NCBI GenBank assembly: GCA_965656495.1
Contig: CBFHKU010000003.1
Span: 64,001-128,000 of the forward strand
Direction: 5' to 3'
Source of the DNA: Coraliomargaritaceae bacterium
GTDB lineage: Bacteria; Verrucomicrobiota; Verrucomicrobiia; Opitutales; Coraliomargaritaceae
DNA length: 64,000 bases
The translations under genes and the position numbers were made by a program. Positions 4,864-45,473 of the stretch are shown one piece after another (within the stretch, counting starts at the first letter, position 1; each line of letters starts with the position of its first letter). The notes under the pieces are model-generated. The model was not told the DNA's origin. It did not search any database and saw nothing but the letters and a program-made list of their open reading frames with translations.

Positions 4864-5965
4864 GTTCCTAGACCTTAAAAAAGTAAACGATGCTTACAAT
4901 GTAGAGATTTTGGAGGCTATACAGCGTGTGTTAGACTCTGGATGGTATCTTCTCGGCCAAGAAGGCGCGGCCTTCGAACAGGAGTTTGCCACATACTGCG
5001 AAGCGGAGTATTGCCTCGGTGTGGCCAACGGTCTTGATTCGCTCATTCTCATCCTGATGGCGTATCGTGAGTTGGGCTTAATGGATGAAGGTGATGAGGT
5101 GATCGTTCCTGCGAATACTTACATTGCCTCTATTCTCGCGATCAGTCGGACGGGTTTGAAGCCCGTTCTGGTCGAGCCCGATGAACGCACGTATAATATC
5201 GACCCGAATCTGATTGAGGCTGCGATCACGGAAAAGACCAAAGCCATCATGGCGGTGCACCTGTATGGGCAATGTGCCGATATGGACCCGATCTGTGCGA
5301 TTGCCAAAAAGCATGGCTTGAAGGTGGTCGAAGATGCGGCGCAGGCCCACGCGGCCACTTACCGTGGACGTAAAACTGGCTCACTCGGTGACGCTGCTGG
5401 TTTTAGTTTTTATCCAGGTAAAAATCTGGGTGCATTGGGTGATGGCGGAGCCGTTACGACCAACGACGCTCAATTAGCCGAAACCATTAAAGCGCTACGC
5501 AATTACGGATCGCATCAAAAATACCATAATTTATACAAAGGGATGAATAGTCGCTTGGATGAGATTCAAGCGGCGATCCTGCGGGTGAAACTGCAGTCTC
5601 TCGATGCGGATACCAAAAAGCGCGAAGACGTTGCCAATCTTTACCTTTCTCGGCTCTCAGCCCTCAGCCTTCAGGTCTCTTTACCACACGTCGCCGACTA
5701 TGGCACACCCGCCTGGCACTTATTTGTGATTCGTGTTAAAGAGCGTGATGCGCTCGCGGCTCAATTATTAGAGCAAGGTGTTCAGACGATGGTTCATTAT
5801 CCTGTGCCGCCGCATTGCCAAAAGGCTTACTCTGAGTTGAAGCATTTATTGTTGCCACAAACGGAGCTGATTCACCAAGAGGTGCTGAGCCTGCCGATCA
5901 GTCCGGTGCTTTCCGAGGTTGAGGTCGAACGAGTCTGTTCGGCATTAAAACAGTTTTTTGTTTAG
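4856..5965 (+). CDS. fdtB: DegT-family sugar aminotransferase (FdtB/QdtB-like)
   Basis: [42 protein letters not shown]; located near fdtA. Confidence 0.88.
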
Positions 5966-5983
5966 CCAGTTTCCTGCGTATTG

Positions 5984-7519
5984 ATGGCCACAGATAAAGC
6001 AGCGAACTCACCGAAGAGTTCTTATGGCAGTATTCTGAAGTCGTCCACGATTGTGGGGGGGGCGGAGGCATTCGTATATATCATTCGCTTACTTCGAGGT
6101 AAGTTGACTGCGGTGCTTTTGGGTACGGCTGGTGTCGGGCTGATTGGCATCTATTCCTCTATGATCAACCTTGTTGCTACTATCAGTGCGATGGGGCTGA
6201 GCAGTAGTGGTGTGCGAGAAATCGCGAGTGCTCGTGGTGCTGCGGATGAGGAGTTGATCGGGCAGCTGCAGTTGGCGATCAGTCGAGTGATTCTTGTACT
6301 GGCATTTGCAGCAGTGATCTTTCTTGCGGGGGCGTCTCCTTGGTTAAGTCGCTTGATGTTTGAGGGGAGTGAGTCTGCGGCTCTCCCCATCGCCTTCTTA
6401 GGTCTAGCGATTGTTTTTAAAGGTCTGAATTTATCGCAAGAGTGTTCGATTCGGGGTTTTAGGCGTATTAGAGATTTCGCACGCATTTCTATTATAGGAG
6501 CATTGATCTCGGCAATATTATCGGTTGGGGTTTACTTGTGGATTGGAGCGGATGGAATCGTCCCGGTCATTGTCATCACTGCGGCGGTGAATTACTTCCT
6601 GGCGTGGTCGTTTTCGCGAAAGCTGCAGGTAGAACCAATATCCAGGAGTTGGGCGATTTCTTTAGTGCATTCGCGTCGACTAATTGGGTTGGGGGCTGCG
6701 GTTGCTTACGGATCAATGCTCTCGAATGTTCCGCCATTAGTGACTCGATCCTTAATAGTATCAAATATGGGATTGAGTGCGAATGGTCTATATTCTGCCG
6801 CATGGGTGATATCAGGGATGTTTGCCCAATTTATTCTTAAGGCGATGTCAGCTGATTTTTTTCCCAGATTGGCTGAGCATTCAGAGGATTCGAAGGTCGT
6901 GAATCAGTTGGTCAGTGAGCAAACAGAAATTGGGATTTTGATTGCATTGCCTGGTATCCTAGTGACGACGGCTTTTGCCCCTTTGGTATTACAATTTTTG
7001 TTTACTGCTGAATTTACCCCAGCGGCTGAGTTATTACCTTGGCTACTTTTGGGGGTCTTCGCTAAAGTGGTCAATTGGCCAATGGGGATGATCATACTTG
7101 CTCATGGTGATTCGAAGCGCTTTGCACTCTCGCAGACGCTATCCGTATGTTTACACGTCGGCCTGATTTATGGTCTCTTTTCATATTTTGGACTCATTGG
7201 AGCTGTCATGAGCTTTGCGTTACTCAACACTCTGTATTGTCCCGGGATCTATCTATACTTATATTTAAAGTATGACTTTCGGTGGGCTGGTGTGGTCGCT
7301 CCGCTGCTTCTAACTTCTTTGGTTCTATTCGCTTTAGTTGTATTGTTACGGATGTACTTAACTGAGGGGATTTCGTTTTATTGCAGCGCTATAGTCATCA
7401 TTCTCCTCGGCTGTGGATTTAGTATGCATGGCCTGCTCCGGCGTTTGGAGGGACATCCACGATTAAATAAGCTGTTGCAGAAGCTTCCATCGGGAATCGT
7501 GAAACGATTTGTGAAATAA
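5984..7519 (+). CDS. wzx: Wzx O-antigen/polysaccharide flippase
   Basis: About 510 aa with many hydrophobic segments; LLGTAGVGLIG and DFFPRL typical of O-antigen translocases. Confidence 0.85.
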   Translation: MATDKAANSPKSSYGSILKSSTIVGGAEAFVYIIRLLRGKLTAVLLGTAGVGLIGIYSSMINLVATISAMGLSSSGVREIASARGAADEELIGQLQLAISRVILVLAFAAVIFLAGASPWLSRLMFEGSESAALPIAFLGLAIVFKGLNLSQECSIRGFRRIRDFARISIIGALISAILSVGVYLWIGADGIVPVIVITAAVNYFLAWSFSRKLQVEPISRSWAISLVHSRRLIGLGAAVAYGSMLSNVPPLVTRSLIVSNMGLSANGLYSAAWVISGMFAQFILKAMSADFFPRLAEHSEDSKVVNQLVSEQTEIGILIALPGILVTTAFAPLVLQFLFTAEFTPAAELLPWLLLGVFAKVVNWPMGMIILAHGDSKRFALSQTLSVCLHVGLIYGLFSYFGLIGAVMSFALLNTLYCPGIYLYLYLKYDFRWAGVVAPLLLTSLVLFALVVLLRMYLTEGISFYCSAIVIILLGCGFSMHGLLRRLEGHPRLNKLLQKLPSGIVKRFVK

Positions 7520-7539
7520 AAGCGTGGGCTCATCTTGAT

Positions 7540-8409
7540 ATGAATAATGTAAATCCAACGGTGACGGTCAGAATGTCGGCTTACAATCATGAGCGATATA
7601 TTGAGCAAGCGATTCTTTCGATCGTAAATCAAACATATCAAGATTTTGAATTACTTGTAATTGACGATGGGTCGAAAGACCAGACCCCCGCGATTCTAAA
7701 AAGGTTGAGTGAAAAATATGGCTTCCATTTCGAAGTGCAGCAAAATCAAGGGCTATGTCCCACGCTGAATAAGTTAATAAGGCGGGCTCGTGGGAAATAC
7801 ATCACTGGTTGTGCATCTGATGATTGTTGGCCGCCGATGCGATTGGAAGAGCAAGTTGCACAGCTTGAAGGACGTCCTGAGCTAGATGTTGTGCTGGGTA
7901 AGCATACGATTATAGACGGAGAGGGGCAGGTTGTTGAGTCGGGTTGGAGAATGAGGCCACCTCTGCGGGGGCGAAAAGAATATTATCCTTTGCTGCGACG
8001 AAAACGTTCTTTCGAGGCAGGTACTATGATGGTACGAGCTCAGGTATTTGAATCAGTTGGGCTTTACGATGTGTCAATTGATGTTGAGGATTTCGATTGG
8101 ATGCTACGAGCGACCAAAGTGTGTAATATTGGGTATTGTAATCGAGTGTGGCTGTATCGCCGTAAGCACGAGAGTAATTGGACGGTGACTTTGAAGGGAA
8201 AGCAGAACATCCGATCCTCGGCGGCTAAGTTGCGTCAAAAACTCGGATTCAAGGATGGTCTCATCTTTTGGTATTACGGGGTTCCGCGAGATTTTAATGT
8301 AGCAGTCAAATCAAAGGGTCGTTCTAAGGGTCTTTATTATCTGTTGCTTCCATTATTCCTATTTAACCGGGACTATTTGCGCGTTTTGTACAAAAGCGTG
8401 TGTAAATGA
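7540..8409 (+). CDS. Glycosyltransferase family 2
   Basis: SAYNHERYIEQAI, IDDGSKD, ASDD, EDFDW motifs. Confidence 0.9.
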   Translation: MNNVNPTVTVRMSAYNHERYIEQAILSIVNQTYQDFELLVIDDGSKDQTPAILKRLSEKYGFHFEVQQNQGLCPTLNKLIRRARGKYITGCASDDCWPPMRLEEQVAQLEGRPELDVVLGKHTIIDGEGQVVESGWRMRPPLRGRKEYYPLLRRKRSFEAGTMMVRAQVFESVGLYDVSIDVEDFDWMLRATKVCNIGYCNRVWLYRRKHESNWTVTLKGKQNIRSSAAKLRQKLGFKDGLIFWYYGVPRDFNVAVKSKGRSKGLYYLLLPLFLFNRDYLRVLYKSVCK

Positions 8410-8447
8410 AATTACGATCTAGCTGATCTCTTTGCGTGCTATTCTAA

Positions 8448-10774: not shown

Positions 10775-10787
10775 TTCAGTTTTGTCA

Positions 10788-12062: not shown

Positions 12063-12186
12063 GTTATCTTTCGCACATTTGATTTGAGTGTGCTTAGGAA
12101 GGTTCCGAAAAAGAACCAAGACCAATGAGCAAAGCGACCCGATTCGCACGAATCACGGAGAAGCTGGAAAGTCTATTCAATCAAGA

Positions 12187-14060: not shown

Positions 14061-15316
14061 GGAGCATTGATTCTCTCTTTTGTATTCACGTGATGCCTGA
14101 AAAGCCCAAAACTCTGCTCTTCCTGACCTATCAGTATCCCTTCCTTCCGGGGGAGTATTTCATCGAGAGTGAAATCAGTTTCCTCTCCGAAGCCTTCTCT
14201 GAAGTGCTGGTTGTTCCAGCGCGTTGTTTTTGGTGGCGCAGCGCAAAAACTTCTCGTGGCTTGCCTGAAAATGTTACTCTCGTTGACCCAAGGCAATTAT
14301 TTTGGATTCAGCGAGTTTTGTATTCCTTGGCAGGAGCGATTGAAATGCTGCCAATGATACTGTTAGGGCGCAAAATTTGGCCGGGGGCTAAGGTCGGGAC
14401 AGCTGGCTGGTTTGACGAGTTTAAGTCGATGTATAAAACCTGTGTACTTGCACACATGTTGCGACATTTATTGAGAACCCGAATGATTAGTTCGGATGTC
14501 GTTGCTTATGCGTATTGGAGAGATTTTTCTGCGGCTGCACTGGCATTTTTGAGGAAACAAAGTCTGGTGCGGCGTCTCTTTGTCAGATGTCATCGGGTTG
14601 ATATTTATCATCCGAAACGCTGGTCGGTTCAAAGTTTTATTGATAGCTATGCGGACGCTATTTTTCCGGTGTCTCAGGATGGCTTCAATCATCTGGTCGG
14701 TGAGAAAGGGCTCGACGCCGGAAAAATCGAGGTGCAGCGTCTGGGAATTCGAGTGCCGGGAACTCAGACGCGACAATCGACGGACGGCGTCTTGCGATTG
14801 GTCTCCTGTTCAAATATTGTTCCCGTGAAGAGGGTTGATTTGATCGCCCGTGTGGTGGCCTTGCTGCCAGGGCGGGTCGAGTGGACCCATATTGGGGATG
14901 GGCCGGAGAAATCACTGGTGGATCAGGTTGTGGCTACTTTGGATTCGAAGCATACGGCTCATTTTACAGGGCGCTTATCGAACGATGCAGTCTATAATTA
15001 CTATTCACATAATCCCGTTGATTGGTTTATTAACTTGAGTGAGTCTGAGGGAGTCCCTGTTTCGATTATGGAGGCAATGGCGCACAGCATTCCATGCGTT
15101 GCCACCGATGTTGGCGGGACCTCTGAAATTGTCCACAAATCAAATGGCATTTTGGTTTCGGCCGATACGCCTTTGGAAGAAATTGTTTCCTTAATCATCC
15201 AACAATCACCATCGGAAAATCTGGAAATGTTGCGGGCGCGAGCACGTGAAACAGCAGAGGAAATGTGTTCTGCAGAGGCAAATTACCGGCGTTTTTGTAA
15301 GATTATTAGCCAGTGA
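14057..15316 (+). CDS. Glycosyltransferase family 4 (true start may be ATG 14093)
   Basis: GEYFIESEI, VPVKRVDL, SESEGVPVSIMEAM, ATDVGGTSEI. Confidence 0.88.
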   Translation: MRSIDSLFCIHVMPEKPKTLLFLTYQYPFLPGEYFIESEISFLSEAFSEVLVVPARCFWWRSAKTSRGLPENVTLVDPRQLFWIQRVLYSLAGAIEMLPMILLGRKIWPGAKVGTAGWFDEFKSMYKTCVLAHMLRHLLRTRMISSDVVAYAYWRDFSAAALAFLRKQSLVRRLFVRCHRVDIYHPKRWSVQSFIDSYADAIFPVSQDGFNHLVGEKGLDAGKIEVQRLGIRVPGTQTRQSTDGVLRLVSCSNIVPVKRVDLIARVVALLPGRVEWTHIGDGPEKSLVDQVVATLDSKHTAHFTGRLSNDAVYNYYSHNPVDWFINLSESEGVPVSIMEAMAHSIPCVATDVGGTSEIVHKSNGILVSADTPLEEIVSLIIQQSPSENLEMLRARARETAEEMCSAEANYRRFCKIISQ

Positions 15317-16488
15317 GCAAATCAACTTTAGTTCATACGGTGCCTTCTTTGGGTATGACCGGTGGCGGGCCACCTCGCTCTGTCAGTCAGCTTTGCGGTG
15401 CGCTTTGTGACGAGTCTGAACGGGCGATTTCTATTATCACGGCGCTCTATATGGATGACCCTCTGGTGCCGTTGCATCAGAGGATTGAGTTGATGACGCA
15501 CGCGGCCAAGGGTCACTCGTTCACTGCCCGACTCCAGGAGACAGGATTTCGCGATTCGCTGCATGCTTTGGTGCGGAAGCAATCAATATCACTCATCCAT
15601 CAACATGGAATCTGGCTTCGGTCGTCTCATGAGGTTATAGGATTTGCGCATGAGTGCTCGATACCTTTAGTGGTCGCGCCCAGGGGCATGTTAGAGCCTT
15701 GGGCAATCAATCATAGTAAATGGAAGAAAAAACTGGCTTGGGTACTCTATCAGAAAAAAGACTTGGAGAAAGTTGCTGGATTTCATGCGACCGCTCACTC
15801 AGAGGCCGAAAGTATTCGTCGACTGGGCTTTAAACAACCGATTGCAGTCATTCCTAATGGGGTTCAATTGCCAGAGGCAATTGAGTGTGAAAGTGCTAAG
15901 GTGAGGAAGTTGGAAGGTGAGAGAAAAACTGCTTTCTTTCTGTCTCGGATACATCCAAAGAAGGGGCTACCAATGTTGTTGGATGCCTGGAAGAAACTCT
16001 CGCCAGAGAGCTGGCGCTTGGTGATTGCGGGTAATGATGATGGCGGGCATGTGGCTGAATTACAGGCTCTAGTAAAACGCTTGGGTCTATCTGAGGGGGT
16101 GTCCTACGCTGGGCCGCTCTTTGGTGAGGCCAAAGAAAAGGCTTATCGTGAAGCGGATCTTTTCGTGTTGCCCTCCTATTCTGAGAATTTTGGCATCGTT
16201 GTGACGGAAGCTCTGGGCTACAAAGTGCCGGTACTGACGACGACAGGCTGCCCGTGGAAGGAATTAGAAACATATAATTGCGGCTGGTGGGTGGAACCGA
16301 CTCCATTAGGCATTGAGCAAGGGCTACAACTTGCCTTGGCAACTTCAGGTCAAGAACTCAGTGAGATGGGCGCGCGTGGTCGTGCGCTTGTTGAAGAAAA
16401 ATATCAATGGCCGGGAATTGCAGAAAGGATGATTGAATTTTACGACTGGCTACTGAAAGGTGGGAATCAGCCTGAATTCGTAGTATGA
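15313..16488 (+). CDS. Glycosyltransferase family 4
   Basis: GGGPPRSV, PRGMLEPW, SRIHPKKG, PSYSENFGIVVTEAL. Confidence 0.9.
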   Translation: MSKSTLVHTVPSLGMTGGGPPRSVSQLCGALCDESERAISIITALYMDDPLVPLHQRIELMTHAAKGHSFTARLQETGFRDSLHALVRKQSISLIHQHGIWLRSSHEVIGFAHECSIPLVVAPRGMLEPWAINHSKWKKKLAWVLYQKKDLEKVAGFHATAHSEAESIRRLGFKQPIAVIPNGVQLPEAIECESAKVRKLEGERKTAFFLSRIHPKKGLPMLLDAWKKLSPESWRLVIAGNDDGGHVAELQALVKRLGLSEGVSYAGPLFGEAKEKAYREADLFVLPSYSENFGIVVTEALGYKVPVLTTTGCPWKELETYNCGWWVEPTPLGIEQGLQLALATSGQELSEMGARGRALVEEKYQWPGIAERMIEFYDWLLKGGNQPEFVV

Positions 16489-17027: not shown

Positions 17028-17028
17028 T

Positions 17029-19959: not shown

Positions 19960-21339
19960 TTAGGCGGAGACAGATTGGAGAAAGTCAGCGATAAGTTTTG
20001 TGCGATCAAAGTTTGTTTGAACTGCCGCATGGGCGCGGGCTTGCATGGCAGCCCGCTCTTCTTCGCATTGGTCGGCGGCTGCCTTGAGGGCAGCGACTGC
20101 GGCGTCGACATCGCCGTGCTCAATCGACCAGCCGACAGGCTCTACCTGTGATGATTGATGATTGATGGTTGATACTTGATCGGGTTCAATGATGTCGCTG
20201 AGGTAGCTGTCTTTCGGGCCAAGGGTAAGCACTGCTCGGCCAATGCTGAGGGCTCCATAGATTTTACAGGGGTGTACTATCCCGCTCATATTTTCGCCTA
20301 GAGAGACGATATGCAGGTCGGCGGCGGAAAGGGAGTAGCGTATCTGATCGAGCGGTTGGTAGGGGAGAGACACGACCGAAGGTCGTGATGTTGAAGGTGG
20401 GAAAGTTTGAATGTGTGAAGGTTGTTTACTTCTTCCCTTATCTGCCTGAGGGATAAATTCGTTGTCAGACTTTCTTACTTTCTTACTTTCATACTTTCGC
20501 ACCCAGTCGTCGATGCGTGCATCGACGACGGCCTTTCCTTTGCCGCCGCCGATGAAGGCGAAAACGAAGCGTGGGTCGTCCGCAAGTTTTTCGGCGGCAT
20601 CCAGTATCGTGTCGAGCGGATGTACGATACTGTGATTGCCGCTATACATTACAACGAACTTGTTCTCCCAGCCTTGTGCTTTGCGGAAAGGATTATCGGC
20701 ATGGGCAACGGGGTCTAAATGATCATCCATTGGCCAGGGAGGGATGACATGAATTGGAGCTCTTAAATCTTTTTCAGGATCACGAAGCTTTGCTTCAAGG
20801 CGAGCTTTCATGAAGCGATCGAGCGCGATAATGGTATCGGCGCGTTTAAGAATACGTCGGTTCAGCCAATCCATCGCAAGGACCAAGGGGTGACCCTTGC
20901 CGAATTTCCCCATCGCGATGGCTTGATCCGGATTGATGTCCATCACCCAGTAGTGCACCTTCAGGCGGGGACGAAAAAATCCAATAGTGACGGCGCATAT
21001 CGCAGCCATGGGTGGGGAGGTTGAAACGAGCAGGTCGGTCAGTTTTCGGTTAAACAGCCCATGAAAGATACATTGGCAGAGAAAAGAAAGTTGAGCCAAA
21101 ATACGAATTGCCAGGTTGGCTTTACCCAATGAAGCAAGCTTCAGTCGCCGGATATGGATCCCATCGCGCGCTTCTTTCGCCTTAAAGACTTCAGCAGGAT
21201 TATCATAACCTCGGATTGCAGTTAGAACCTCAACGGCATTTCCCTTTTTTACTAAAGTTTGTGCTGCTTCATCCAAATATTGGCCGACAGCGGCGGGGTC
21301 GGGCGGGAAAACCTGAGTGATAATGAGGAACCGTTTCAT
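19960..21339 (-). CDS. Glycosyltransferase family 4 (WbuB/WcaI-like) carrying two repeat-derived in-frame inserts
   Basis: QVFPPD, STSPP, WVMDINPD, YSGNHS, HPCKIYG. Confidence 0.85.
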   Translation of the reverse strand: MKRFLIITQVFPPDPAAVGQYLDEAAQTLVKKGNAVEVLTAIRGYDNPAEVFKAKEARDGIHIRRLKLASLGKANLAIRILAQLSFLCQCIFHGLFNRKLTDLLVSTSPPMAAICAVTIGFFRPRLKVHYWVMDINPDQAIAMGKFGKGHPLVLAMDWLNRRILKRADTIIALDRFMKARLEAKLRDPEKDLRAPIHVIPPWPMDDHLDPVAHADNPFRKAQGWENKFVVMYSGNHSIVHPLDTILDAAEKLADDPRFVFAFIGGGKGKAVVDARIDDWVRKYESKKVRKSDNEFIPQADKGRSKQPSHIQTFPPSTSRPSVVSLPYQPLDQIRYSLSAADLHIVSLGENMSGIVHPCKIYGALSIGRAVLTLGPKDSYLSDIIEPDQVSTINHQSSQVEPVGWSIEHGDVDAAVAALKAAADQCEEERAAMQARAHAAVQTNFDRTKLIADFLQSVSA

Positions 21340-24436: not shown

Positions 24437-24690
24437 AAACACAGAGGATTGGAGTTATAGAAAAACGCGGAGGATCAAAGAATTGGAGTTGTGGATATTA
24501 TAAACGCAGAGGATCAAAGAAATGGAGTTATTTATTATAAACGCGGAGGATCAAAGAATCGGAGTTATGGATGTAATAAACGCAGAGCATCAAAGAATCG
24601 GAGTTATGGATGTAATAAACGCAGAGCATCAAAGAATCGGAGTTGTTGATTTAATGAATATCTCTCCGTTCCTCTGCTCCTCTGCGTTAA
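24437..24690. repeat. Tandem 37-39-bp repeat array closed by one inverted copy
   Basis: Units AAACGCRGAGSATCAAAGAAWYGGAGTT start at 24463, 24502, 24539, 24578, 24617 (truncated unit at 24437); inverted copy CTCTCCGTTCCTCTGCTCCTCTGCGTTAA at 24662-24690. Confidence 0.95.
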
Positions 24691-24707
24691 TAATTTGATG
24701 GGCTCAA

Positions 24708-28866: not shown

Positions 28867-28965
28867 GGGATAAACTACAAGGGTTAAGCCTTGCTTGCGC
28901 TTCGGCGGATTGATTCAATACGCCTTGAAAAACTAGGAGCTACTTTCGCCTATTATTGGTTCAAA

Positions 28966-31900
28966 ATGTCGCAGAATTTGAAAAGTGATATCCCCACTCA
29001 AGAGGCAGAACAACGCCTCGAATTGATGCGTGCCATGTGGCGGAGTCGCTTGGGCGACCTGCGGGAACAAAGCCTCATTCGTCAGGGGAAAGGCTGGTTC
29101 CATATCTCGGGAATGGGGCATGAATCCTTGGCGACTGCGGCATTGCATCTTGAAGCGGGTGACTACGCCTTCCCGTATTATCGTGACCGGGCTTTTTGCG
29201 TTCAACGGGGTCTCGATGATGCCGCACTCGCGCTGGCGTTCTATGCGAAACGTGATTCCTCCAGTGGCGGGCGCCAGTTGACCGGGCATTTCAGTGACCG
29301 CGCCCTGAACATCTGGAGCCATCCATCCCCGGTTGGTGCGCACCTCCTGCCGGCCTGCGGGGCGGCTTGGGGTATTCAAATGGATGGATCGGGGCAGGTG
29401 GTGTATGCTTCGCTTGGCGAGGCGGCGGCGCGGCAGGGTGATTTCTACGAAGCGGTTTGTTTTGCGAAGGAACGGCAGCTGCCGATTGTTTTTGTGGTCG
29501 AGGACAACCGCATTGCGATCAGCACCGACACACAGCGGACGAATCCCCTGGCGTTGGGAGTCTTGGCGGCGGAAGAATGGCGACGCGTTGACGGGGTCGA
29601 GGTGGATGCGGTTTCAGCGGTGATGAAGGATGCCATTGAATTTGCGCGCTCGGGCAAGGGTCCCGCTTTTGTATGGTGTGATGTCGAGCGTTTCTCAAAT
29701 CATTCGAGCGCGGATGACCAGCGCATGTATCGCGCTCCCGATGAGCTGGAAGCCCTGCAGACCCGCGATCCGGTAGCGCTTTACCGGGCGCAGTTGATCG
29801 AGTCGGGTGTATTGACTGAAGCGGAGGCGGAGGCACAGGAAACAGAAATAAAGGCGGAGGTTCGCGCCGCGTATAAGGCCGCCGAGTCCGCGGAGGATCC
29901 CCACGCAAAGGAGCAGGGCGCGCACCTCTATGGGCCAAGCTATGAACCGGAGCCCGTTCCGGTGGAGTTGGACTCCGAGTGCCGGATTCTTGACGCGGTC
30001 AATCGCACCTTTCACGCCGCTTTGGATCAATTGCCGGAAGTGGTCTTTTTTGGTGAGGATATTGCGGACCCGAAGGGCGGGGTCTTTAACCTGACGAAGG
30101 GGCTTTCGACCAAGGATCCCGCGCGGGCGGTGAATTCGCCCCTCGCGGAATCCACCATTATGGGGGTGGCGGTTGGGCTGGCGTCCTACGGCAAGCGTCC
30201 CTGTTTTGAAATTCAATTTGTGGACTTCATTTATCCTGGCTGGAATCAGTTGGTCAGCAACATGGCGACCCTGCGCTGGCGGAGCTTTGGGCAATGGGAA
30301 TGCCCCCTGGTGATTTATGCACCCTGCGGGGGTTATTTGCCCGGCGGGGCGCTTTGGCACAGTCAATCCGGCGAGGCGAATTTTGCGCGTATTCCGGGTC
30401 TCCGAGTGGTGGTACCCTCGACGCCAAACGATGCGGCGGGACTTTTTTGGGCGGCATTGCGCGGGAGTGACCCCACCATCATTCTTTTGCCGAAGCATTT
30501 GATGTGGGCGGCACAGGCCGCCCCGGCACCCGTGCCACCTGTATCGCTTGGCAAAGCCCGGGTCCTGCGTGAAGGGGATGTCCTGACCTTGGTGACCTGG
30601 GGAAATTGCGTGGAATTGGTGGAGGAAAGCCTTGAGAAAATGGAGGCTGAACTCGCAATCGAATTGATCGACCTGCGTTCGATCGCGCCTTGGGACCGCG
30701 AGTGTCTCATGGAATCGGTCTGTAAGACGGGGCGTTTGCTCGTGGTTCAGGAGGACAACATCACCGCGAGTATTGGGCAGATGTTGGTGGCGGAGCTGTG
30801 CAGTGAGCGCCGGGTTTTAGAGGCCTTGAAAAGCCCCCCGGCGATTGTTTCGAAAGGCGACGTCCACATTGGCTTTAATCCGATTTATGAATACGCCGCC
30901 CTGCCGGATCATGAGCGGGTCGTGAATGCGATTGAAAGTATTCTGGGAACCGCCTTGAAGTCCTCGCTCGAGGCCGCAAAATGGAGCGAGCAATCGGATG
31001 CGCCTGCCGCACCAACCAAGACTCCCGCCGGGGAAGCAAAACCAATCATGAACTCCGAAAATCTAATTAAAACGATCACGGTGCCGATTCTGGGCGAGGG
31101 GATTCGGGTGGCGCGCATTGTGGCGGTGCATAAAGCGGTGGGCGATCTCGTCGCGGCGGATGAAGCGCTCTGTGAAGTCGAGACCGACAAGGCGGTTTTC
31201 CCGATTGAATGCGATGTGGAGGGGCGCTTGCTCGAGTGGAACGCCGGTCTGGATGATGAGGTCAAGGTGGGGCAGGAATTATTGAAGCTTCAGATCGCGG
31301 GGGAGGCCGTCGCAACGGATGCTCCGGCAACGGTCGTCGATGCCGCACCTGCAAATACGGGGCTCTCTCCGGAGGCGATTCAGCAAATACAGGGGATCAT
31401 CCCGGCAACGATTGACATGACTTGTCGTTGGGAGGCGGTGCGTGCTGCTCGCCTGCGGAGTAAAGCATTGGGCGGCGGAACCCTTTCACCGGTGACGATG
31501 GCGGCATGGGTGGCGGTGCAGTCGATGAAGTCGCACAAGCGTTTTGCCAGTTATGTGAGCGGCGGCAAGTTGCGGGAGGATGAAGCCGACTTCGATCTGG
31601 GCATCGCAGTTGCCTTGCCCGGTGATGTTTTGGAAACCGCGGTGGTGCCGTCTGCCAATAAACTGACTTGGGAATCGTTCCCAGAGGCGGTGAATCTCGC
31701 CTTGAAAAAAGCGCGCCAGGGGGAATCGGTTTCAAAGAATCGCGTTTCACTGATTATCTCCAGCTTGGGGACCTACTCGGTGCGTTCTGCTATTCCGGTG
31801 GTGGTGCCGCCCGCGGTGGCGACGCTCTTTGTCGGGGCGCCTCAAAGCCTGCCGGATCCGAAGTCAGAAACGGGTGCCTTGATGGAGGTGGTTTCGCTGG

Positions 31901-31995
31901 TCCTGACCTTTGATCATCGCTGGATCAATGGTGTGGGTGCCGCCGCGTTCCTTTCAAAGGTGCGCAAGGGGATTGAGCGTTTTGACTTAGTCTGA
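28966..31995 (+). CDS. 2-oxoacid dehydrogenase fusion: E1alpha + E1beta + lipoyl domain + E2 catalytic domain
   Basis: E1a [32 protein letters not shown]1b FGEDI..GGVF, PLAES, EIQFVDF, WHSQS; lipoyl EVETDKA; E2 [10 protein letters not shown]. Confidence 0.9.
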
Positions 31996-33306: not shown

Positions 33307-33363
33307 GCTATATAGGTTTGATAGTTATAAGGAAAGGGCGGGTAGTTGGATTCGGCGGCGGGT

Positions 33364-34797: not shown

Positions 34798-34817
34798 AAG
34801 AGTGATTGTGGGATCCG

Positions 34818-36750: not shown

Positions 36751-36878
36751 TCGTTGCCAGTTTATTCACAGTCCCTGTGGCGTTGCTGTGAATTTTGGGA
36801 ACAAGTCCGGCGATTGCATGTAAATAGGTGCTTCGCCGGATTAAATCCGCAGTCATTGGAGCTAGGTAGACAAATATT

Positions 36879-37430: not shown

Positions 37431-37493
37431 TATTTTCAGAGAGGGAGCGGCTTGTCGCTTGCCACGCGAGGCGAGATCAGCACGCTTGGTCAA

Positions 37494-38132: not shown

Positions 38133-38198
38133 CTGTCTCTTTTTCTAACTGAGGCTTGCATAACGATTAACCCAATTTTACTGAATACACCCTGAGAC

Positions 38199-39491
38199 AT
38201 GGAGGAGCAAACCGCACTCATTCGCCTCGACGATACTAACTACGAATTCCCCCTTATTCTAGGAACTGAGGGCGAAAAAGCCTTTGATATACGCAGCCTG
38301 CGCGCGAAATCCGGCTACATTGCCTTTGATGAAGGCTACGGTAACACCGGTTCCTGCCTGAGTGATATCACTTTTATCGACGGCGAACAGGGGGTCTTGC
38401 GGCATCGGGGTTACCCCATCGAGCAACTGGCGGCAAAGTCCACCTTCCTCGAAACCGCCATGCTCATCATTTATGGTGAATTGCCCGCTGAGGAAAAACT
38501 AAACACCTTTCGCCAACAGGTGCGCGGCAGTGCGACGATTCACACCAGCATGCACCACCACTTTGAAGGCTTCCCCAGCAACGCCCATCCCATGTCGATT
38601 CTTTCGGCGATGCTCAATGCCCTCGGTGCCTACTACCCCGAGATGTCCTCCAATGACCGCGAGCAGGACCTCGCCCATTTTGATGAGACCGCCGCCCTCC
38701 TGATTTCCAAAGTGCGCACCATTGCGGCCATGACCTTCCGCATGAAAAAGGGACTCCCCTTTGTGGCGCCCGACCACTCGAGGCGCTATTGCGAGAATTT
38801 CCTCCATATGATGTTCTCTGAGCCCTACGAGGAATACGTCGATAATGTCGGAGCGGGCGATGCCCTCGATCTCTTCCTGCGCTTACATGCTGACCACGAG
38901 CAAAACTGCTCCACCTCAACCGTGCGCATGGTCGCATCCGGCGGTGCAAATCTCTTCGCCTCCGTCTCCGCCGGGGTCTGCGCTCTCTGGGGGCCCTCCC
39001 ACGGCGGCGCCAACATGGCGGTCGTGCAAATGCTCGAGGATATCCACGCCAGCGGTGACGACGGGTCACGCTTTATCGAGGCCGCCAAAGAAGGCAAAGC
39101 CAAGCTCATGGGCTTCGGGCACCGCGTCTACAAAAACTACGACCCCCGCGCCAAGATCCTCGGCAAGACCGTCGAGCAAGTCCTCACCCAAATCGGCGTG
39201 GACGATCCCCTGCTCAAGATCGCCCGGCGTTTGGAGCAATCCGCCCTCGAGGACGATTACTTCGTCAGCCGCAAACTTTATCCCAATGTGGATTTCTACA
39301 GCGGGATCCTCCTGCGCGCCATCGGCATCCCGCCGGAAATGTTTACCGTCATGTTCGCGATTGGCCGCATGCCGGGCTGGATCGCAAATTGGAAGGAAAT
39401 CGCCGAAAACCCCAAGGGCCGTATTCACCGACCCCGCCAGATCTACACCGGTCAAGGGCTTCGCGACTACACCCCCCTCGAAAAACGCTAA
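38199..39491 (+). CDS. gltA: Citrate synthase (type II)
   Basis: [40 protein letters not shown]. Confidence 0.97.
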
Positions 39492-40279
39492 GCGGAATCC
39501 CCGCTCTTACTCGCTTTCTCTTCCGGCGCGTGGACCACGTCCTCCAGCTTCAGGCCCGTGTAGCGGTGGATGCCGCGCAGCAACATCCACAGGGCCAGCA
39601 CCATAATCGCGAGACTCGGCACCACGATCACCGGCCAGCTCCACGCCATCATTTTCGCCACCTCCGCATTGAAGGCATCCGAACCACTCGGGCTCACCAC
39701 AATCCAGCGCGCCAGCATAAAATTTAAAACCGCGCTCAACAGAAACGAGCCCGCCAACAGCCAGGTGCATTTTTCCAGCAGCTTCTCAAAACCCGCCACC
39801 GAATCATTTTCCTCCAGCGCAGCCTGCACCTTATCGACATCCATAATCTCCGGCGAGTAGAGCAGCGTCCGGATCAAAGGGTAGGGCGTCTTCAGCGAAA
39901 TCACCACCGCTATCCCAATCAGCGCCGGGATCGCCGCCTCCTTCACCGCAAACCATTCCGTCGGAATATTCAGGATGCCGATCCCGCCCGTCAGCAGCAC
40001 GCTGATCAGTCCCAGAATCGAGAGGAAGTTGTATTTCTGCCGCTTGAAATAATCATAGATGAAATAGACGACTGGGAAAGCCAGCGCGATCAACAGAATC
40101 GGAATCGCGACATTCTCAAAGTGCGGCTCCAAATAGGCGCCGAACCAACCGCGCCCCTTATTTAATATCATAATCGGCAAAAGAATATTAAAGCCGAGGT
40201 TGAGGAACATGTTCTCCTTTTTCGGTGCCGGTTTTCCCGCCGTCGAACTTTCCGAGGTGCTGTGTTGCGAAGCTGCCAT
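39488..40279 (-). CDS. Multi-TM membrane protein (VC0807-like)
   Basis: [38 protein letters not shown]. Confidence 0.7.
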
Positions 40280-40304
40280 AAACCGCACTAGGCTTCCCAC
40301 TCAT

Positions 40305-40955
40305 ATGTCAAATGCAAGCTCTATCCGCTGCCTCATCACCGCCGGACCGACCCGCGAGTTCCTCGACCCGGTGCGTTTCCTGAGTAATCCCTCCACCGGT
40401 AAGATGGGTTTTGCCCTCGCCGAGGCCGCCCTCCGCCTCGGTTGGAATGTCGATCTCGTCGCCGGCCCCGTCAGCCTGCCCGAGCCCGAAGGCGCCATCC
40501 TATACCCCGTGGTAAGCGCCGAGGAAATGTTCCATCAGGCCGACGCCCTTTTCGATGCCTGCGATGTCTGCATCATGGCTGCCGCCGTCAGCGATTTCCG
40601 CCCCGCGCACTATCAAGCCCAAAAAGAAAAGAAGACCGATGCCGCCCTCAGCCTCCAACTGGAGCGCACCCCCGACATCCTCGCCACCCTCACCGAGCGC
40701 AAACTCCATCAAACCGTGGTTGGATTCGCCGCCGAGACCCAACACCTCGCCGAAAACGCCCGCGCCAAACTCGCCGCCAAACGCTGCGACCTCATTATCG
40801 CCAACGACCTCACCCAACCCGGCGCCGGATTTGCCACCGATACCAATACCGTCACCCTCTTCGCCGCCGACGGTTCAGACGAAACCCTCGGCCCCGCCCT
40901 CAAATCCGCCCTCGCCACCGAAATTATCCACCGCATCGCCCGCCTCCGCCCTTGA
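40305..40955 (+). CDS. coaB: Stand-alone phosphopantothenate-cysteine ligase
   Basis: [42 protein letters not shown]; no CoaC domain. Confidence 0.9.
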
Positions 40956-40984
40956 GCCCGCTTCCAGCATTGTCATCCCCTCAG

Positions 40985-41036
40985 TCTTACTCATACTCTA
41001 AATCCTAATCTTAATCCTACTCTTAATCTTAATCCT
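40985..41036. repeat. Hexamer array (TCYTAM)n, left arm of an inverted pair
   Basis: tcttac tcatac tctaaa tcctaa tcttaa tcctac tcttaa tcttaa tcct, then a C9 run at 41037-41045. Confidence 0.92.
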
Positions 41037-41064
41037 CCCCCCCCCATCTAAAACAACAGTCCAC

Positions 41065-41463
41065 ATGGCTTCCGCCCTCGATCACGAAAAATTAAAGGTG
41101 TATCAAAAAACCCTTCAATTTATCAGTGAGGTGGAAACGCTGCGAAGCGAAATCCCCAAAGGACACACCGCCGCAATCCATCTCGAACGAGCCGCGACCT
41201 CCATCGCACTCAACATTGCAGAAGGAAATGGTAAATATACCGCCGCAGACCGTTGCCGATTTTTTGATATTGCCCGAGGCTCTGCCACTGAATGTGCCGC
41301 AGCTCTGGACATCCTTAATGCAAAAGCAGTCCTCAGTAATGAGACTACAATTCCCGCCAAGGCCCTGCTTTCTGAAATTGTTGCGATGTTGGTCGGATTA
41401 ATTCGCAGTCAAAATTCTGGACGAACGCACGAACCTCCTCAGCCTTACAATGCAAAGGATTAG
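41065..41463 (+). CDS. Four-helix-bundle protein (23S rRNA intervening-sequence protein / TIGR02436-like family)
   Basis: HEKLKVYQK, LERAATSIALNIAEGNG, RFFDIARGSATEC, EIVAMLVGLI. Confidence 0.92.
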   Translation: MASALDHEKLKVYQKTLQFISEVETLRSEIPKGHTAAIHLERAATSIALNIAEGNGKYTAADRCRFFDIARGSATECAAALDILNAKAVLSNETTIPAKALLSEIVAMLVGLIRSQNSGRTHEPPQPYNAKD

Positions 41464-41489
41464 CTTGTGCTTTCTGAATTGTTGGAAAG

Positions 41490-41555
41490 GTTAGAGTGAG
41501 ATTAAGATTAGGATTAAGATTAGGATTAAGATTAAGAGTAAGAATAAGGGGAAGA
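41490..41555. repeat. Hexamer array (KTARGA)n, right arm, reverse complement of 40985-41036
   Basis: gttaga gtgaga ttaaga ttagga ttaaga ttagga ttaaga ttaaga gtaaga ataagg ggaaga. Confidence 0.92.
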
Positions 41556-41580
41556 GGAAGTTTATCATTTATAAAGGCAT

Positions 41581-42765
41581 ATGAAAAATACCGGGCTTGA
41601 TAAAATCCTGGGCCGAATTGAGGATCTCGACTCGGTCAACCTCGGTATTCTCGTCCAGCGCCTCGCCCGCGAGCGCAAACTTCAGGAAACCGTCTTCAAT
41701 ACCATTCAGGATGGCATCCTCGTCATTGATACCGATGGCATCGTGCAATACGCCAACGCCGCCGCCCTCGGCATCATCGGTCTCAAGGAAAACGACATCG
41801 GCACCGCCCGCCTCTGGAAAATGGTGCCCGACCTCGCCCGCTCCATCGACCCGCAAAGCGTGGACGGTTCCCGCGCCGCGAAACCCGTCCTCGCCCGCGA
41901 AGTCGAGCTCACCTATCCCGAACGCCGCTACCTCCGCCTTTATATGGTGCCCATTGCCACCCAGGTCGGCGCGTCCGATAGCGGCGGTTACGTCGTGGTC
42001 CTCACCGACGTCACCGAAGACAAGGTCACCCTCGAAGAACGCATCGAGAGCGAACGCATTGATTCCATCATGCGCCTTGCCGCCGGAGTCGCCCATGAAC
42101 TCGGCAACCCCCTCAACTCCCTCACCATCCACCTGCAACTCATCAAGCGTCAACTCGCCAAACTAGAAGCCGACGCCGGGTCGCCCGCCTCCAAATCCAT
42201 CGCCGATTCCCTCCAAATCTGCCAGGGCGAAGTTTCCCGCCTCGATGGCATCATTACCCATTTCCTCGAGGCAGTCCGCCCACAAAAACCCGAACTCAAC
42301 GAGATCAACCTCCTCGAACTCGTCGAGGAAGTCCTGCGCGTGCAGGAGGCTGAGCTCGTGGACCGCAAGCTCGAGATCGACATCGAGGTCAACGATACCC
42401 CGCCCGCCATTCTCGGCGACCGCGGACAAATCAAGCAGGTCTTTTTCAACGTCACCAAAAACGCCATGGAAGCCATGCAGGCCGGTGGACAACTCCGCAT
42501 CCGTACCGCCCTCGACGACGAATTCCTCACCCTCCAATTCATTGACACCGGTTCCGGCATCGCCGAAGCCGACCTCGCCAAAGTCCTCCAGGCCTATTAT
42601 ACCACCAAAGAAGAAGGCCATGGCCTCGGCATGATGATCGTCCAACGCATCATGCGCGACCACGGCGGACAAATCGGAATCGAATCCCGCGAGGGTGCCG
42701 GCACCGTCATTTCCCTCCAATTCCCCCTCCCGCATCGCCGCACCCGACTCCTCGAAGGCGATTAA
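41581..42765 (+). CDS. PAS-domain sensor histidine kinase (NtrB-like)
   Basis: [40 protein letters not shown]. Confidence 0.93.
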
Positions 42766-42828
42766 AAACAATTACTTGCGCATAAATGGTTGCATACCGC
42801 CAAATTCTCTTTTTTCTCCTCCGCTAGC

Positions 42829-43986
42829 ATGGCAAACGGTTTTAAAGAAGGAATACTCGCATTTGAAGACGGAACAATTTTCCGCGGACGCGCCTTTGGA
42901 GCCGCCGCCACCAAAACCGGAGAGGCCTGTTTCAACACCAGCATGACCGGTTATCAGGAAATCCTGACCGATCCCTCCTATTTCTCCCAGATCATCACCA
43001 TGACCGCCGTCCAGATCGGGAACTACGGTATTTGCCCCGAGGATGTTGAATCCGATGGCCCCAAGGTTAGCGGCTTCGTGGTGCGTGAGGTCAGCCCCCT
43101 CACCAGCAATTGGCGGAGCAACCAGTCCATCCAGGACTACCTCACCGAAGCAGGCATCCCCGGCCTCGAAGGCGTCGATACCCGCGCCATCACCAAAAAA
43201 CTCCGCGTCGCCGGTGCCCTCAACGCCTGCCTCAGCACCGAAGGCCTCAGCGATGAGGAAGCCGTCGCCAAAGCCCGCGATTTCGGCGGACTCGTCGGAG
43301 TCGATTTTGTCAAGGAAGTCACCGCCGCCGCCCCCTACGATTGGACCGCCCGCGGCGAGCCCTGCACTCCCTTTACCGTCGTCGGTACCGATATAAGCAC
43401 CGCCCCCGTTCCCCAGCAACGCTTCAAAATTGCCGCCCTCGACTTTGGCGCCAAATACTCCATCTATCGCCGCCTCCAACAACACGGCTTCGACGTCCAC
43501 GTCTTCCCCGCCAACACCCCCGCCGAGGCCATCCGCGAATTCAATCCCCAGGGACTCTTCCTTTCCAACGGCCCCGGCGATCCCGCCGCCGTCACCTACG
43601 CCCACGCCACCGTGCGCGAACTCATCGACCATTATCCCACCTTTGGCATCTGCCTCGGGCACCAGATCATCACCCACGCCCTCGGCGCCGAAACCTTTAA
43701 GCTCAAATTCGGGCACCGCGGCGGCAACCAACCCGTCAAGAATCTCGAGACCGGAAAAGTTGCCATCACCGCTCAGAATCACGGCTTCGCCTCCACCAAA
43801 GAAGAACTCGAAAAACACGGCGCCATCGTCACCGAGATCAACCTCAACGACCAAACCGTCGAAGGCCTCCGCCTTAAGGACCGCCCCGTCTTCTCCGTGC
43901 AATACCACCCCGAGGCCGCCCCCGGCCCCAACGACGCCGACCCCCTCTTCACCGAATTCCATCAACTCGTCGCCCAACACGTATAG
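42829..43986 (+). CDS. carA: Carbamoyl-phosphate synthase small subunit
   Basis: [45 protein letters not shown]. Confidence 0.97.
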
Positions 43987-44000
43987 GGTGTGGGTGGCTA

Positions 44001-44056
44001 AGGGGTGGGAAAGTGCAAAGGTGTGAAAGTGGGAAGGTTAGGGAACGTCAAAAGTA
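44001..44056. repeat. Octamer array (GAARGTNN)n directly after carA
   Basis: aggggtgg gaaagtgc aaaggtgt gaaagtgg gaaggtta, then gaacgtca aaagt. Confidence 0.75.
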
Positions 44057-44521
44057 ACCCACGCGCCAACCAATAGCATGTGTACCAGTGATGCCATTTT
44101 TTAAGGAAACGCATACAGAAGCTTCTTGGCTACGAAGCCTTCATGGTTAGAGCGGTCGATGGATCTGCATGACTTCGGTGCAGGTTTTTGAAAAACCAAC
44201 GGCAACCGAAGCGATAACAGGCATCCCGGTTCCTTTATGGAAGGGAAGCTTGCTTATTCGTTGAACACCCAAGCACAAAGCCCACCTCGAATGTGCGTGT
44301 CCCGGTTAACCGCAGGGTCCAAGCGGAACCCAATCTGCCGGACCGCTGCTGAATTCGGTATGGATGCGACTCCTGCAGCTATGTATTTCAATTTATGACT
44401 CAGCTGAAGCACAATCGCAAGCATCCAGCTTCTGTATTGCCCTAAGGCCAGCTTAGCTGGCGACCGCTAATGGGCGCTGATTTTCGCTAATCCTTAAAAC
44501 AAAAATATGAGCGGTTCCCGG

Positions 44522-44663
44522 CTCTGCGTTTTATATTCTAACGCGGAGGAGCTCTCAAACTCTGCGTTTATGATTTAACGCGGAGGAGCGGAGGATCAGA
44601 GGCTCTGCGTTTATGATTTAACGCGGAGGAGCGGAGGAGCGAAGGGCTCTCAAACTCTGCGTT
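44522..44663. repeat. REP-like palindrome array, left of the Doc-type TA pair
   Basis: CTCTGCGTT-(8-9 nt AT-rich)-AACGCGGAG at 44522-44548, 44560-44585, 44603-44628; extra half-site 44655-44663. Confidence 0.95.
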
Positions 44664-44709
44664 GGATAGTTGACTTGCAAATTATTGTGAAATCGCAGAT
44701 AGTAAAGGT

Positions 44710-44895
44710 ATGGATGCAATGGAAGTCATCGACCACTTCAAGCGCTTACCTGAAGAAGAACAAGGTAAGGTCGTTGAGTTCATCCGTAAGGATAGCTCTG
44801 CGAAAGTGCGCTATGCCGACGATGAGGCTGCCAAAGCTGCGGGCGAGGCTGTCTTTAATGAACACCCCGAAGTGTTCCGCAAGTTGGCACAATGA
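44710..44895 (+). CDS. Putative antitoxin of the Doc-type toxin
   Basis: 61 aa; ATGA overlap with the toxin; C-terminal FNEHPEVFRKLAQ resembles Doc-neutralising helices. Confidence 0.7.
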   Translation: MDAMEVIDHFKRLPEEEQGKVVEFIRKDSSAKVRYADDEAAKAAGEAVFNEHPEVFRKLAQ

Positions 44896-45275
44896 GCGAT
44901 CCGGTCTTTTTGACGACCGCTCAGGTAGAAGCTTATCACAGACGAGGCTTGGAGCTTTATGGCGGTTCCGAAGGTCTCCGGAACCGTTCTCTTTTTGAAA
45001 GTGCGGTAGCTCAGGCTCAGAACGTATACTGGTATGGAAATGGCGACCTGTATGACATTGCGGCGGCTTACTGCTACTATATCGCACAAGTCCAAGTGTT
45101 CCTTGATGGGAATAAAAGGGCTGCAACTGCTGCATGCTTGGCCTTCCTGAAGTTGAACGGTGTCAGAACTGATATTGAACTGACGATGCCTCTCTATAAT
45201 GCCTTGATTGATATTGCAGAACATCGCATGGACCGTGACGGTCTGGCGGGCATGCTTCGCGAGTTGCTCACATAG
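44892..45275 (+). CDS. Death-on-curing (Doc/Fic) family toxin
   Basis: YGGSEGLRN..LFESA, AAAY, FLDGNKR. Confidence 0.88.
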   Translation: MSDPVFLTTAQVEAYHRRGLELYGGSEGLRNRSLFESAVAQAQNVYWYGNGDLYDIAAAYCYYIAQVQVFLDGNKRAATAACLAFLKLNGVRTDIELTMPLYNALIDIAEHRMDRDGLAGMLRELLT

Positions 45276-45341
45276 CCGCAAAAGGGGGTTAAAGGTGGGA
45301 ACGTTGAACGACGGGCGTTGTTGAGTTGTGACCCTTTGCTG

Positions 45342-45473
45342 CTCTGCGTTTATGATTTAACGCGGAGGAGCAGAGGAGCAGAGGCTCTGCGTTTTATATT
45401 TTAACGCGGAGGAGCGGAGGAGCAGAGGGGCTCTGGAACTCTGCGTTTTATATTTTAACGCGGAGGGGCGCGG
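45342..45473. repeat. REP-like palindrome array, right of the Doc-type TA pair
   Basis: CTCTGCGTT-(8-9 nt)-AACGCGGAG at 45342-45367, 45385-45411, 45439-45465, with GAGCRGAG tails. Confidence 0.95.

What the first reader, a model, noticed from the sequence alone, without database searches (positions are those of the whole stretch)
5650..45473. Synthesis: candidate system of short-period inverted repeat arms that carry, lose and leave behind small cargo
Seen: at least six unit types (one 6-mer, two 7-mers, the GAARGTNN 8-mer, a 10-mer, and the AACGCRGAG family) in three states: enclosing a small gene (41 kb, 44.5-45.5 kb), empty arrays or pairs (20.4 kb, 24.5 kb), and single arms in spacers or in-frame protein linkers (5.65, 15.9, 20.15, 44.0, 45.3 kb). 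They cluster in the glycan locus and the skew-flip hotspot; I saw none in 46-64 kb. Inference: a shared mechanism without a local transposase, possibly involving four-helix-bundle proteins, that moves small genes and diversifies surface-glycan enzymes. The link between families is a hypothesis and I cannot confirm novelty without a literature search.
Basis: inference. Interest (0 to 1): 0.8.

Follow-up and report, generated by a model that had tools for sequence, protein, structure and literature searches.

The report
Repeat-armed gene cassettes invading sugar enzymes
Short mirror-image repeat runs are scattered through this marine bacterium's genome and match the arms around two kinds of small genes of unknown function; they are likely the leftovers of those gene cassettes, and different repeat types sit in frame at the same few positions of sugar-building enzymes in related species, by a copying mechanism that is still unknown.

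Summary
The arrays are real: 111 periodic runs in intergenic DNA against 0 in ten shuffles. They occur genome-wide and are not concentrated in the glycan locus (4 seen, 4.15 expected).

They are not one system. The 6-, 7- and 8-nt units match the arms of four-helix-bundle genes, one arm type per paralog. The AACGCRGAG type resembles the arms of GxxExxY nuclease genes. A RAYT-type REP joins 31 of 34 mosaic spacers, none in the window.

Presence/absence is shown: the 41-kb cassette is missing in three congeners and partly deleted in a fourth. Foreign cargo is weak: 2 of 23 toxin genes are flanked on both sides.

The strongest result is in-frame arms. All 6 real hits lie in 3 genes of one glycan locus. 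Orthologs carry different repeat families at the same positions or lack them. Relatives also have arms in PurL and UvrA.

The mobilising enzyme is unidentified. The scan noted armed cassettes and in-frame arms before in other genomes; nine literature searches found no unified description.

The parts
5655..5675 (-). 7-nt array (about 3 units) in frame in the DegT-type aminotransferase gene 4856-5965; no net length gain
   Evidence: same length as the 74% ortholog
15883..15921 (+). decayed 8-nt arm forming the linker of GT4 gene 15313-16488; relatives show other arm types or none here (judged by eye)
   Evidence: below the strict threshold
19960..21339 (-). WcaI-like GT4 glycosyltransferase, 459 aa, host of two in-frame repeat inserts
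20149..20182 (-). single 7-nt arm read in frame, 13 aa longer than the congener ortholog
20371..20503 (-). gene-less inverted 8-nt arm pair plus a small GAA-loop hairpin, read in frame, about 36 aa longer than the congener ortholog
24438..24694 (+). AACGCRGAG array (39-nt period x5) with an inverted end; absent in 2 and different in 2 of 4 congeners
40973..41036 (+). left 6-nt arm (pyrimidine-rich strand first)
41065..41463 (+). four-helix-bundle gene (TIGR02436 / PF05635; related to PDB 2gsc)
41494..41560 (+). right 6-nt arm
44005..44040 (+). single 8-nt arm after the carA stop; shared with congener G002
44050..44523 (+). non-coding modules shared with other spacers; the piece at about 44437-44511 recurs at 18 other places in the genome
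44522..44663 (.). AACGCRGAG hairpin array, left of the toxin-antitoxin pair
44710..44895 (+). 61-aa ORF, likely the antitoxin by position (no family hit)
44892..45275 (+). Doc/Fic-family toxin gene
45284..45330 (+). decayed mixed 8-/7-nt arm
45342..45470 (.). AACGCRGAG hairpin array, right of the pair, same orientation as the left one; the block from about 44523 to 45462 is absent in the 96%-identical relative G006

Best explanation
The arrays match the inverted arms found around two families of small genes (four-helix-bundle genes for the 6-, 7- and 8-nt units, GxxExxY nuclease genes for the AACGCRGAG and 10-nt types) and are likely the spread remains of those gene cassettes, which would be copied as ready-made blocks by an unidentified activity and then lose their gene by short-homology deletion. 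SHOWN: arms around cognate genes; presence/absence at orthologous sites; replacement of one cassette type by another at one site; internal deletions of both gene types; unit-number change in arms; 39-218-bp blocks shared between distant spacers; in-frame arms of different families at the same enzyme positions. INFERRED: (1) New arms land preferentially in or beside old ones, which builds co-oriented mosaic spacers; recombination between mosaics shuffles blocks and now and then moves or drops a neighbour such as the Doc-type pair. (2) Hits inside genes survive only when in frame and in a tolerant loop; an occupied loop is then re-invaded. Glycan genes are hit most, likely because cassettes are common in these mobile, tolerant loci. 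(3) The cognate protein acts on its own arm type in trans, as RAYTs are proposed to do for REPs; this step has only correlational support.
For: All 4 own four-helix-bundle genes have arms, each of a different type (one is degenerate). Arms were seen by eye at 27 of 29 examined loci from relatives and self (30 loci returned). The three 6-nt pyrimidine-first cassettes group together (93/76; 99/96 with one armless gene), and the two TGAT-type ones are sisters (97/95). All 8 genomes with 8 or more 8-nt hits have the gene; the 17 without it have 3 or fewer (P=0.013; kin not independent). G016 carries another clade with other arms at the site where G000, G006 and G012 have the 8-nt cassette. GxxExxY genes: 3 of 5 own genes lie inside inverted arms and 2 beside arrays; 17-18 of 24 loci show such arms by eye; two hollowed copies flank an intact one. 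The 41-kb cassette is absent in G001, G002 and G005; G006 has it with a 72-nt deletion between 9-nt direct repeats and shorter arms. All 34 of 34 multi-family mosaics share a block with another mosaic; arms are co-oriented (17/17, 15/15, 8/8, 20/23, 20/22; copies not independent). In frame: 6 real hits in 3 genes, all among the 39 of 1673 CDS of one glycan locus (P=1.2e-5), codon-shuffle null 0 in 5 of 5. WcaI-like orthologs carry 8-nt or 7-nt pairs, or nothing, at the same sites. In RfbB, 10 of 15 lengthened copies are periodic in each of two loops, against 0 of 20 conserved controls.
Against: No transposase activity is known for either protein family, and none was tested. No target-site duplication is visible at 41 kb (relatives only 83-89% alike). 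No four-helix-bundle ORF remnant was found inside any gene-less pair in this genome. The common GAACATC 7-nt family has no cognate gene among the four own paralogs. 16 of 24 genomes with the gene have fewer than 8 hits of the 8-nt type. Up- and downstream flanks paired better with each other than with any other locus's flank in only 12 of 27 and 8 of 24 cases. No GxxExxY gene inside exact AACGCRGAG arms was seen, so that link is by resemblance and adjacency. Arm labels on the tree were set by eye, with no shuffle test, and the 8-nt clade is one orthologous site. In-frame arms also occur in PurL (2 genomes) and UvrA (1).
Confidence: 0.55

Rival explanations
1. One shared system: all arm types are recognised by one machinery that picks up small foreign genes such as toxin-antitoxin pairs and moves them.
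For: The array-TA-array block is absent in the 96%-identical G006. The carA-kefB spacer has different content in 5 of 5 genomes compared. Toxin genes flanked on both sides: 2 of 23 against 13 of 1728 other genes, P=0.016. Arms of different families are co-oriented.
Against: 21 of 23 toxin genes lack arms on both sides, and against small genes (8 of 388) P=0.10. The TA flanks are direct, not inverted. G005 has another gene in that spacer without 8-nt arms. Arm types sort with two unrelated gene families.
Confidence: 0.15
2. The REP-associated tyrosine transposase (RAYT) spreads the mosaics: arms hitch-hike on REP-containing single-stranded segments, and the small genes are passengers.
For: Two RAYT-like genes, each flanked by its own REP family; one keeps an HVH motif. 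Its REP is in 31 of 34 multi-family mosaics, and 34 of 43 REP loci hold arms. The relative G006 is rich in both.
Against: No copy of this REP lies in the window. It occurs in only 5 of 41 genomes; five genomes rich in 8-nt arms lack it, and G003 and G005 have it with 3 arm hits each. Other RAYT/REP types in those genomes were not searched.
Confidence: 0.15
3. Repeat units are added de novo to both ends of DNA breaks by a template-using polymerase and the ends are rejoined, which would give inward-pointing inverted arms around whatever lies between.
For: Fixed polarity of arms; unit-level variation; pairs with short unrelated centres and one mismatched left/right pair in an ortholog; no gene remnants in empty pairs.
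Against: Distant spacers share multi-family blocks at 88% identity or more. The only reverse transcriptase found lies among unrelated island-like genes, with no arms noted. Arm type follows gene clade.
Confidence: 0.07
4. Independent slippage microsatellites with no mobile component.
For: Unit numbers do change by slippage-like steps between G000 and G006.
Against: A few unit families recur genome-wide, pair as inverted arms, share flanking blocks and appear or vanish as whole cassettes.
Confidence: 0.03

Closest known systems
23S rRNA intervening sequence with an S23p ORF (Coxiella burnetii; PMC4990558, passages read)
   Same: Same protein family (PF05635) between terminal inverted repeats; that paper reports tandem heptamers upstream of the ORF, variable in number, and ORF decay.
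   Different: Here the cassettes lie between and inside protein genes, use several unit types, and have many gene-less copies. RNase III processing was not tested, and there is no sense-strand pairing bias.
Rickettsia palindromic elements (RPE; as reviewed in PMC2229807, passages read)
   Same: Palindromic repeats fused in frame in protein genes as well as intergenic.
   Different: RPEs are 105-146-bp elements with no coding form described there. Here the inserts are periodic arms with cognate genes, different families occupy the same position in orthologs, and glycan enzymes are favoured.
Bacterial heptamer repeats: Xanthomonas/Nostoc (PMC4692102, passages) and Beggiatoaceae TAACTGA (PMC4679880, passages)
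   Same: Mostly intergenic 7-nt arrays, oriented, often as convergent pairs; a few lie inside ORFs.
   Different: Neither main text contains 'helix bundle'. The first found no association with mobile elements, and the second found in-ORF copies mainly at protein ends. Their supplements were not read.
REP/REPIN with RAYT (PMC3116915, passages)
   Same: A single-copy gene per repeat family, flanked by its repeats; clusters formed by insertion into or beside existing elements. One true REP-like family with RAYT is present in this genome.
   Different: The short-period arms are tandem arrays, not REP hairpins, and their cognate genes are not HUH transposases.

Membership tests
Four-helix-bundle / S23p protein (TIGR02436, PF05635) | HMM score above the curated cut-off | tested here: met
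   72.5 bits vs 24; 77.4 vs 33.8; matches PDB 2gsc, E 4.7e-7
23S rRNA intervening sequence (IVS) | Located in a 23S rRNA gene | tested here: not met
   Lies between a coaB-like gene and a histidine kinase gene
23S rRNA intervening sequence (IVS) | S23p ORF between terminal inverted repeats | tested here: met
23S rRNA intervening sequence (IVS) | Excised from RNA by RNase III | not testable with these tools
   Only contig-level runs were listed; the sense strand paired better in 9 of 27 loci
MITE / non-autonomous IS derivative | Terminal inverted repeats | tested here: met
MITE / non-autonomous IS derivative | Target-site duplication | tested here: inconclusive
   None visible at 41 kb; the empty alleles are only 83-89% alike
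MITE / non-autonomous IS derivative | Cognate transposase with the same ends | tested here: inconclusive
   The two Y1 transposases have other ends; other transposase families were not searched
REP/REPIN-RAYT | Short palindrome flanking a RAYT and dispersed in extragenic DNA | tested here: not met
   Met by the separate GTGG-tagged family (133 copies), but not by the window's arrays; no such REP in the window
RPE-like in-frame palindromes | Palindromic repeat fused in frame, absent from orthologs | tested here: met
RPE-like in-frame palindromes | Host protein translated and active with the insert | not testable with these tools
   ORFs are intact and conserved on both sides; no expression data
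Diversity-generating retroelement (Avd relative) | Reverse transcriptase and template repeat next to the gene | tested here: not met
   The only RT is on another contig
Phase-variable slippage SSR | Array arises and varies in place, without mobility | tested here: not met
   Whole cassettes present/absent and blocks shared between loci

The most novel reading that the evidence does not exclude
Four-helix-bundle and GxxExxY genes are the coding members of an undescribed class of transposase-free mobile cassettes, each protein clade serving its own repeat word in trans. They are the source of the long-unexplained 6-8-nt bacterial repeats, and their arms repeatedly rewrite the same loops of glycan-building enzymes, acting as a natural loop-swapping diversifier of surface sugars.
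Probability: 0.3. Interest if true: 0.88.

Novelty: new variant of a known kind. Interest (0 to 1): 0.64.

Why it matters
Dispersed heptamer-type repeats in bacteria have been described without an origin, and PF05635 and GxxExxY proteins have no known function. A one-to-one match of repeat word to protein clade gives a direct binding and mobility test for both questions. The ortholog series shows protein loops being refilled by different repeat families at fixed positions, a recurring source of new peptide sequence in surface-glycan enzymes whose effect on activity can be assayed.

Tried and rejected
(1) mRNA-hairpin selection: the sense strand paired better in only 9 of 27 and 9 of 24 loci; not supported.
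(2) Local retro-element: one RT, elsewhere in the genome; rejected.
(3) AACGCRGAG survey across relatives: the pattern was mis-spaced and gave 0 hits in the own genome; uninformative, so the spread of this family was tested only at single loci.
(4) Population contigs over 40.3-46.2 kb (4 runs): they show the G006-type allele (72-nt deletion) beside the window type. Joints that skip the cassettes have short sides or unknown middles and fit other repeat loci, so they show neither excision nor inversion. Population variation of the in-frame arms remains unexamined.
(5) ORF remnants in gene-less pairs: found only for GxxExxY.
(6) A full cassette interrupting the GT4 at an insert site: none among 8 orthologs; the longest gene holds three in-frame inserts instead.
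(7) Structure model of the GT4: the job had not finished, so 'surface loop' rests on alignment gaps and general knowledge of these folds.
(8) Rows dropped: 7 of 13 in-CDS hits were spurious ORFs or N-terminal extensions over mosaic spacers. In some searches, of 14 ORFs scanned, 3 without a family hit, 4 upstream of the real start and 1 ordinary coding match (WecG) were set aside.
(9) The crude gene caller truncates AT-rich genes; a longest-ORF set was used.
(10) Literature searches found no paper joining these parts; subscription journals are mostly not held. Elhai 2008 was seen only as a reference. PMC8700078 and bioRxiv 2021.01.26.428298 (passages) mention the families only in passing.
Full report
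SETTING. The window is contig C3:64001-128000 of a 2.06-Mb, 99%-complete genome. Close relatives of one window gene are titled Verrucomicrobia, Puniceicoccaceae, Opitutaceae and similar, and public runs holding the DNA are marine or aquatic. Bases 1-21 kb are the end of a glycan locus; the rest is mostly housekeeping genes.

OBSERVATION. The arrays exist at the stated places. A genome-wide scan found 134 periodic arrays, 105 of them intergenic, although only 13% of the genome is intergenic. Intergenic DNA gave 111 runs (periods 6: 38, 7: 29, 8: 33, 9: 2, 10: 9) against 0 in each of ten shuffles. A few unit families account for them. No family hit lies beyond 45.47 kb, and no 10-nt array lies in the window. 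The skew flip at 38.2-44.0 kb affects genes on both strands and has no arms at its left edge. Congeners share the gene order, so it looks like an old inversion.

WHO OWNS THE ARMS. The genome has 4 four-helix-bundle genes, 5 GxxExxY genes and 2 Y1 transposases of RAYT layout. Each four-helix-bundle gene has its own arm type: 6-nt (the 41-kb gene), 8-nt, a TTAGAAG-type 7-nt and a degenerate TGAT-type 7-nt. In relatives, 27 of 29 examined loci show arms by eye, and similar arms sit on related proteins (labels by eye, no shuffle test). The 6-nt clade puts the pyrimidine-rich arm first, so 'purine arm first' is not general. All 8 of 41 genomes with 8 or more 8-nt hits have the gene, and the 17 without it have 3 or fewer; 16 genomes have the gene but few 8-nt hits, as expected if they use other words. 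Three of the 5 own GxxExxY genes lie inside inverted arms and two beside arrays, one of them an AACGCRGAG array. By eye, 17-18 of 24 loci in relatives have arms of this general kind. Assigning AACGCRGAG to this family is inference. The common GAACATC 7-nt family has no cognate gene here.

FILLED, HOLLOWED, EMPTY. The 598-bp insert at 41 kb is replaced by about 30 bp in G001, G002 and G005, with no visible target duplication. G006 (about 96% identical) has it with shorter arms and a 72-nt deletion between 9-nt direct repeats that removes the conserved core; the same allele shows in population contigs. Two hollowed GxxExxY copies flank an intact one on contig C4. At another site G016 carries a different clade with different arms where G000, G006 and G012 carry the 8-nt cassette. 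The 24.5-kb array is absent in G001 and G002 and different in G005 and G006. No four-helix-bundle remnant was found in gene-less pairs of this genome.

MOSAICS. Of 60 loci with periodic arrays, 34 mix two or more families. All 34 share a 39-218-bp block at 88% identity or more with another mosaic, and 31 contain the REP of one RAYT. Arms of different families are co-oriented (copies not independent). The 44-kb spacer belongs to this network: one module recurs at 18 other places. The REP is not needed for arm spread in general: it is absent from the window and from five arm-rich relatives.

CARGO. The Doc-type pair lies between two same-orientation hairpin arrays. The block is missing in G006, and the spacer differs in all five genomes compared. 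But only 2 of 23 toxin genes (PIN, Doc, ParE) have arms on both sides, against 13 of 1728 other genes (P=0.016) and 8 of 388 small genes (P=0.10). The spacer is a variable slot; general cargo capture is not shown.

IN-FRAME ARMS. A strict scan gave 13 in-CDS hits: 7 in spurious ORFs over mosaics, and 6 in three genes (the WcaI-like GT4, the DegT gene, and RfbB 9 kb upstream of the window). All three lie in the one glycan locus (39 of 1673 CDS, P=1.2e-5; codon shuffles 0 in 5 of 5). The GT4 is about 36 and 13 aa longer at two sites than its 80%-identical congener ortholog. Among 8 orthologs the first site holds an 8-nt pair in two, a 7-nt pair in one and no array in the rest; the second site holds other 7-nt arms in two; one gene has a third insert. 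RfbB has three variable loops that are shorter in solved structures. In two of them, 10 of 15 lengthened copies are periodic (mostly 7 or 8 nt), against 0 of 20 conserved controls. The 15.9-kb linker keeps its length but shows different arm-like words in relatives (by eye). The 5.65-kb array adds no length. In G012, G016 and G009, internal in-frame 8-nt arms lie in 6 glycan gene copies (GT4, GT2 x2, RfbB x3) and in 3 others (PurL x2, UvrA): enriched in glycan genes, not confined to them.

MECHANISM. The best reading (0.55) is gene-armed cassettes copied as blocks, decaying by deletion and slippage, piling into mosaics, and surviving in genes only in frame. Shown and inferred steps are separated in Best explanation. 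The mover is unknown: neither protein family is a known transposase, the only RT is unlinked, and no sense-strand hairpin bias was found. Rivals are a single cargo system (0.15), RAYT hitch-hiking (0.15), de novo addition at breaks (0.07) and slippage alone (0.03).

KNOWN AND NEW. The cassette works like the ORF-bearing 23S rRNA intervening sequence, for which heptamers beside the ORF are in print (PMC4990558, passages), but it is not one. The in-frame copies behave like RPEs (PMC2229807, passages). The arrays resemble described heptamer repeats whose papers do not name this gene family in their main text (supplements not read). Nine searches found no unified account. The scan's notes report armed cassettes in at least 25 other genomes and in-frame arms in several; these are unchecked notes, not support.

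VERDICT. Interest 0.64.

Noticed in passing
G000:C3:59600-60330 (L004), 4 kb upstream of the window: A four-helix-bundle cassette sits between a truncated rfbA-like 5' fragment and a decayed second rfbA-like start (gene identity recalled from the translation). Cassettes of this family precede rfbA-like starts in G040 and G028, where the arm appears to extend the N-terminus.
   Followed up: partly
window 20371-20387; also G000:C3:59835 and L093: A small GAA-loop hairpin directly abuts the arms at several sites. Other 20-30-nt palindromic mini-elements sit inside arms in RfbB loops (L101, L112) and in the G001 spacer.
   Followed up: no
G000:C4:74850-75890 (L007): Three tandem GxxExxY cassettes (one intact, two hollowed), each followed by a duplicated start of the downstream gene.
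   Followed up: partly
G000:C9:68590-69770 and C15:8700-10170: Two RAYT-like Y1 transposase genes, each flanked by arrays of its own REP family (133 and 14 regex hits genome-wide).
   Followed up: partly
genome-wide: 20 PIN-domain toxin genes in a 2.06-Mb genome, most inserted singly between housekeeping genes without repeats.
   Followed up: partly
L036 and L038 (G005, G002), carA-kefB spacer: An unannotated gene of about 200 codons with Cys/His motifs occupies the slot that holds the Doc pair in the window; it appears frameshifted in G002.
   Followed up: no
window 38199-43986: Segment with reversed third-position GC skew on both gene strands, shared gene order in congeners; likely an old inversion.
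   Followed up: partly
window 28891-31995: A single 1034-aa ORF matches pyruvate-dehydrogenase-type E1 alpha, E1 beta and E2 models, a three-way fusion.
   Followed up: no
G000:C13:29400-35900: Island-like region with a 457-aa reverse transcriptase, a resolvase-like gene and unknown genes.
   Followed up: no
L166, L188, L182 (G016, G009): In-frame 8-nt arms in interdomain regions of PurL (two genomes) and UvrA.
   Followed up: partly
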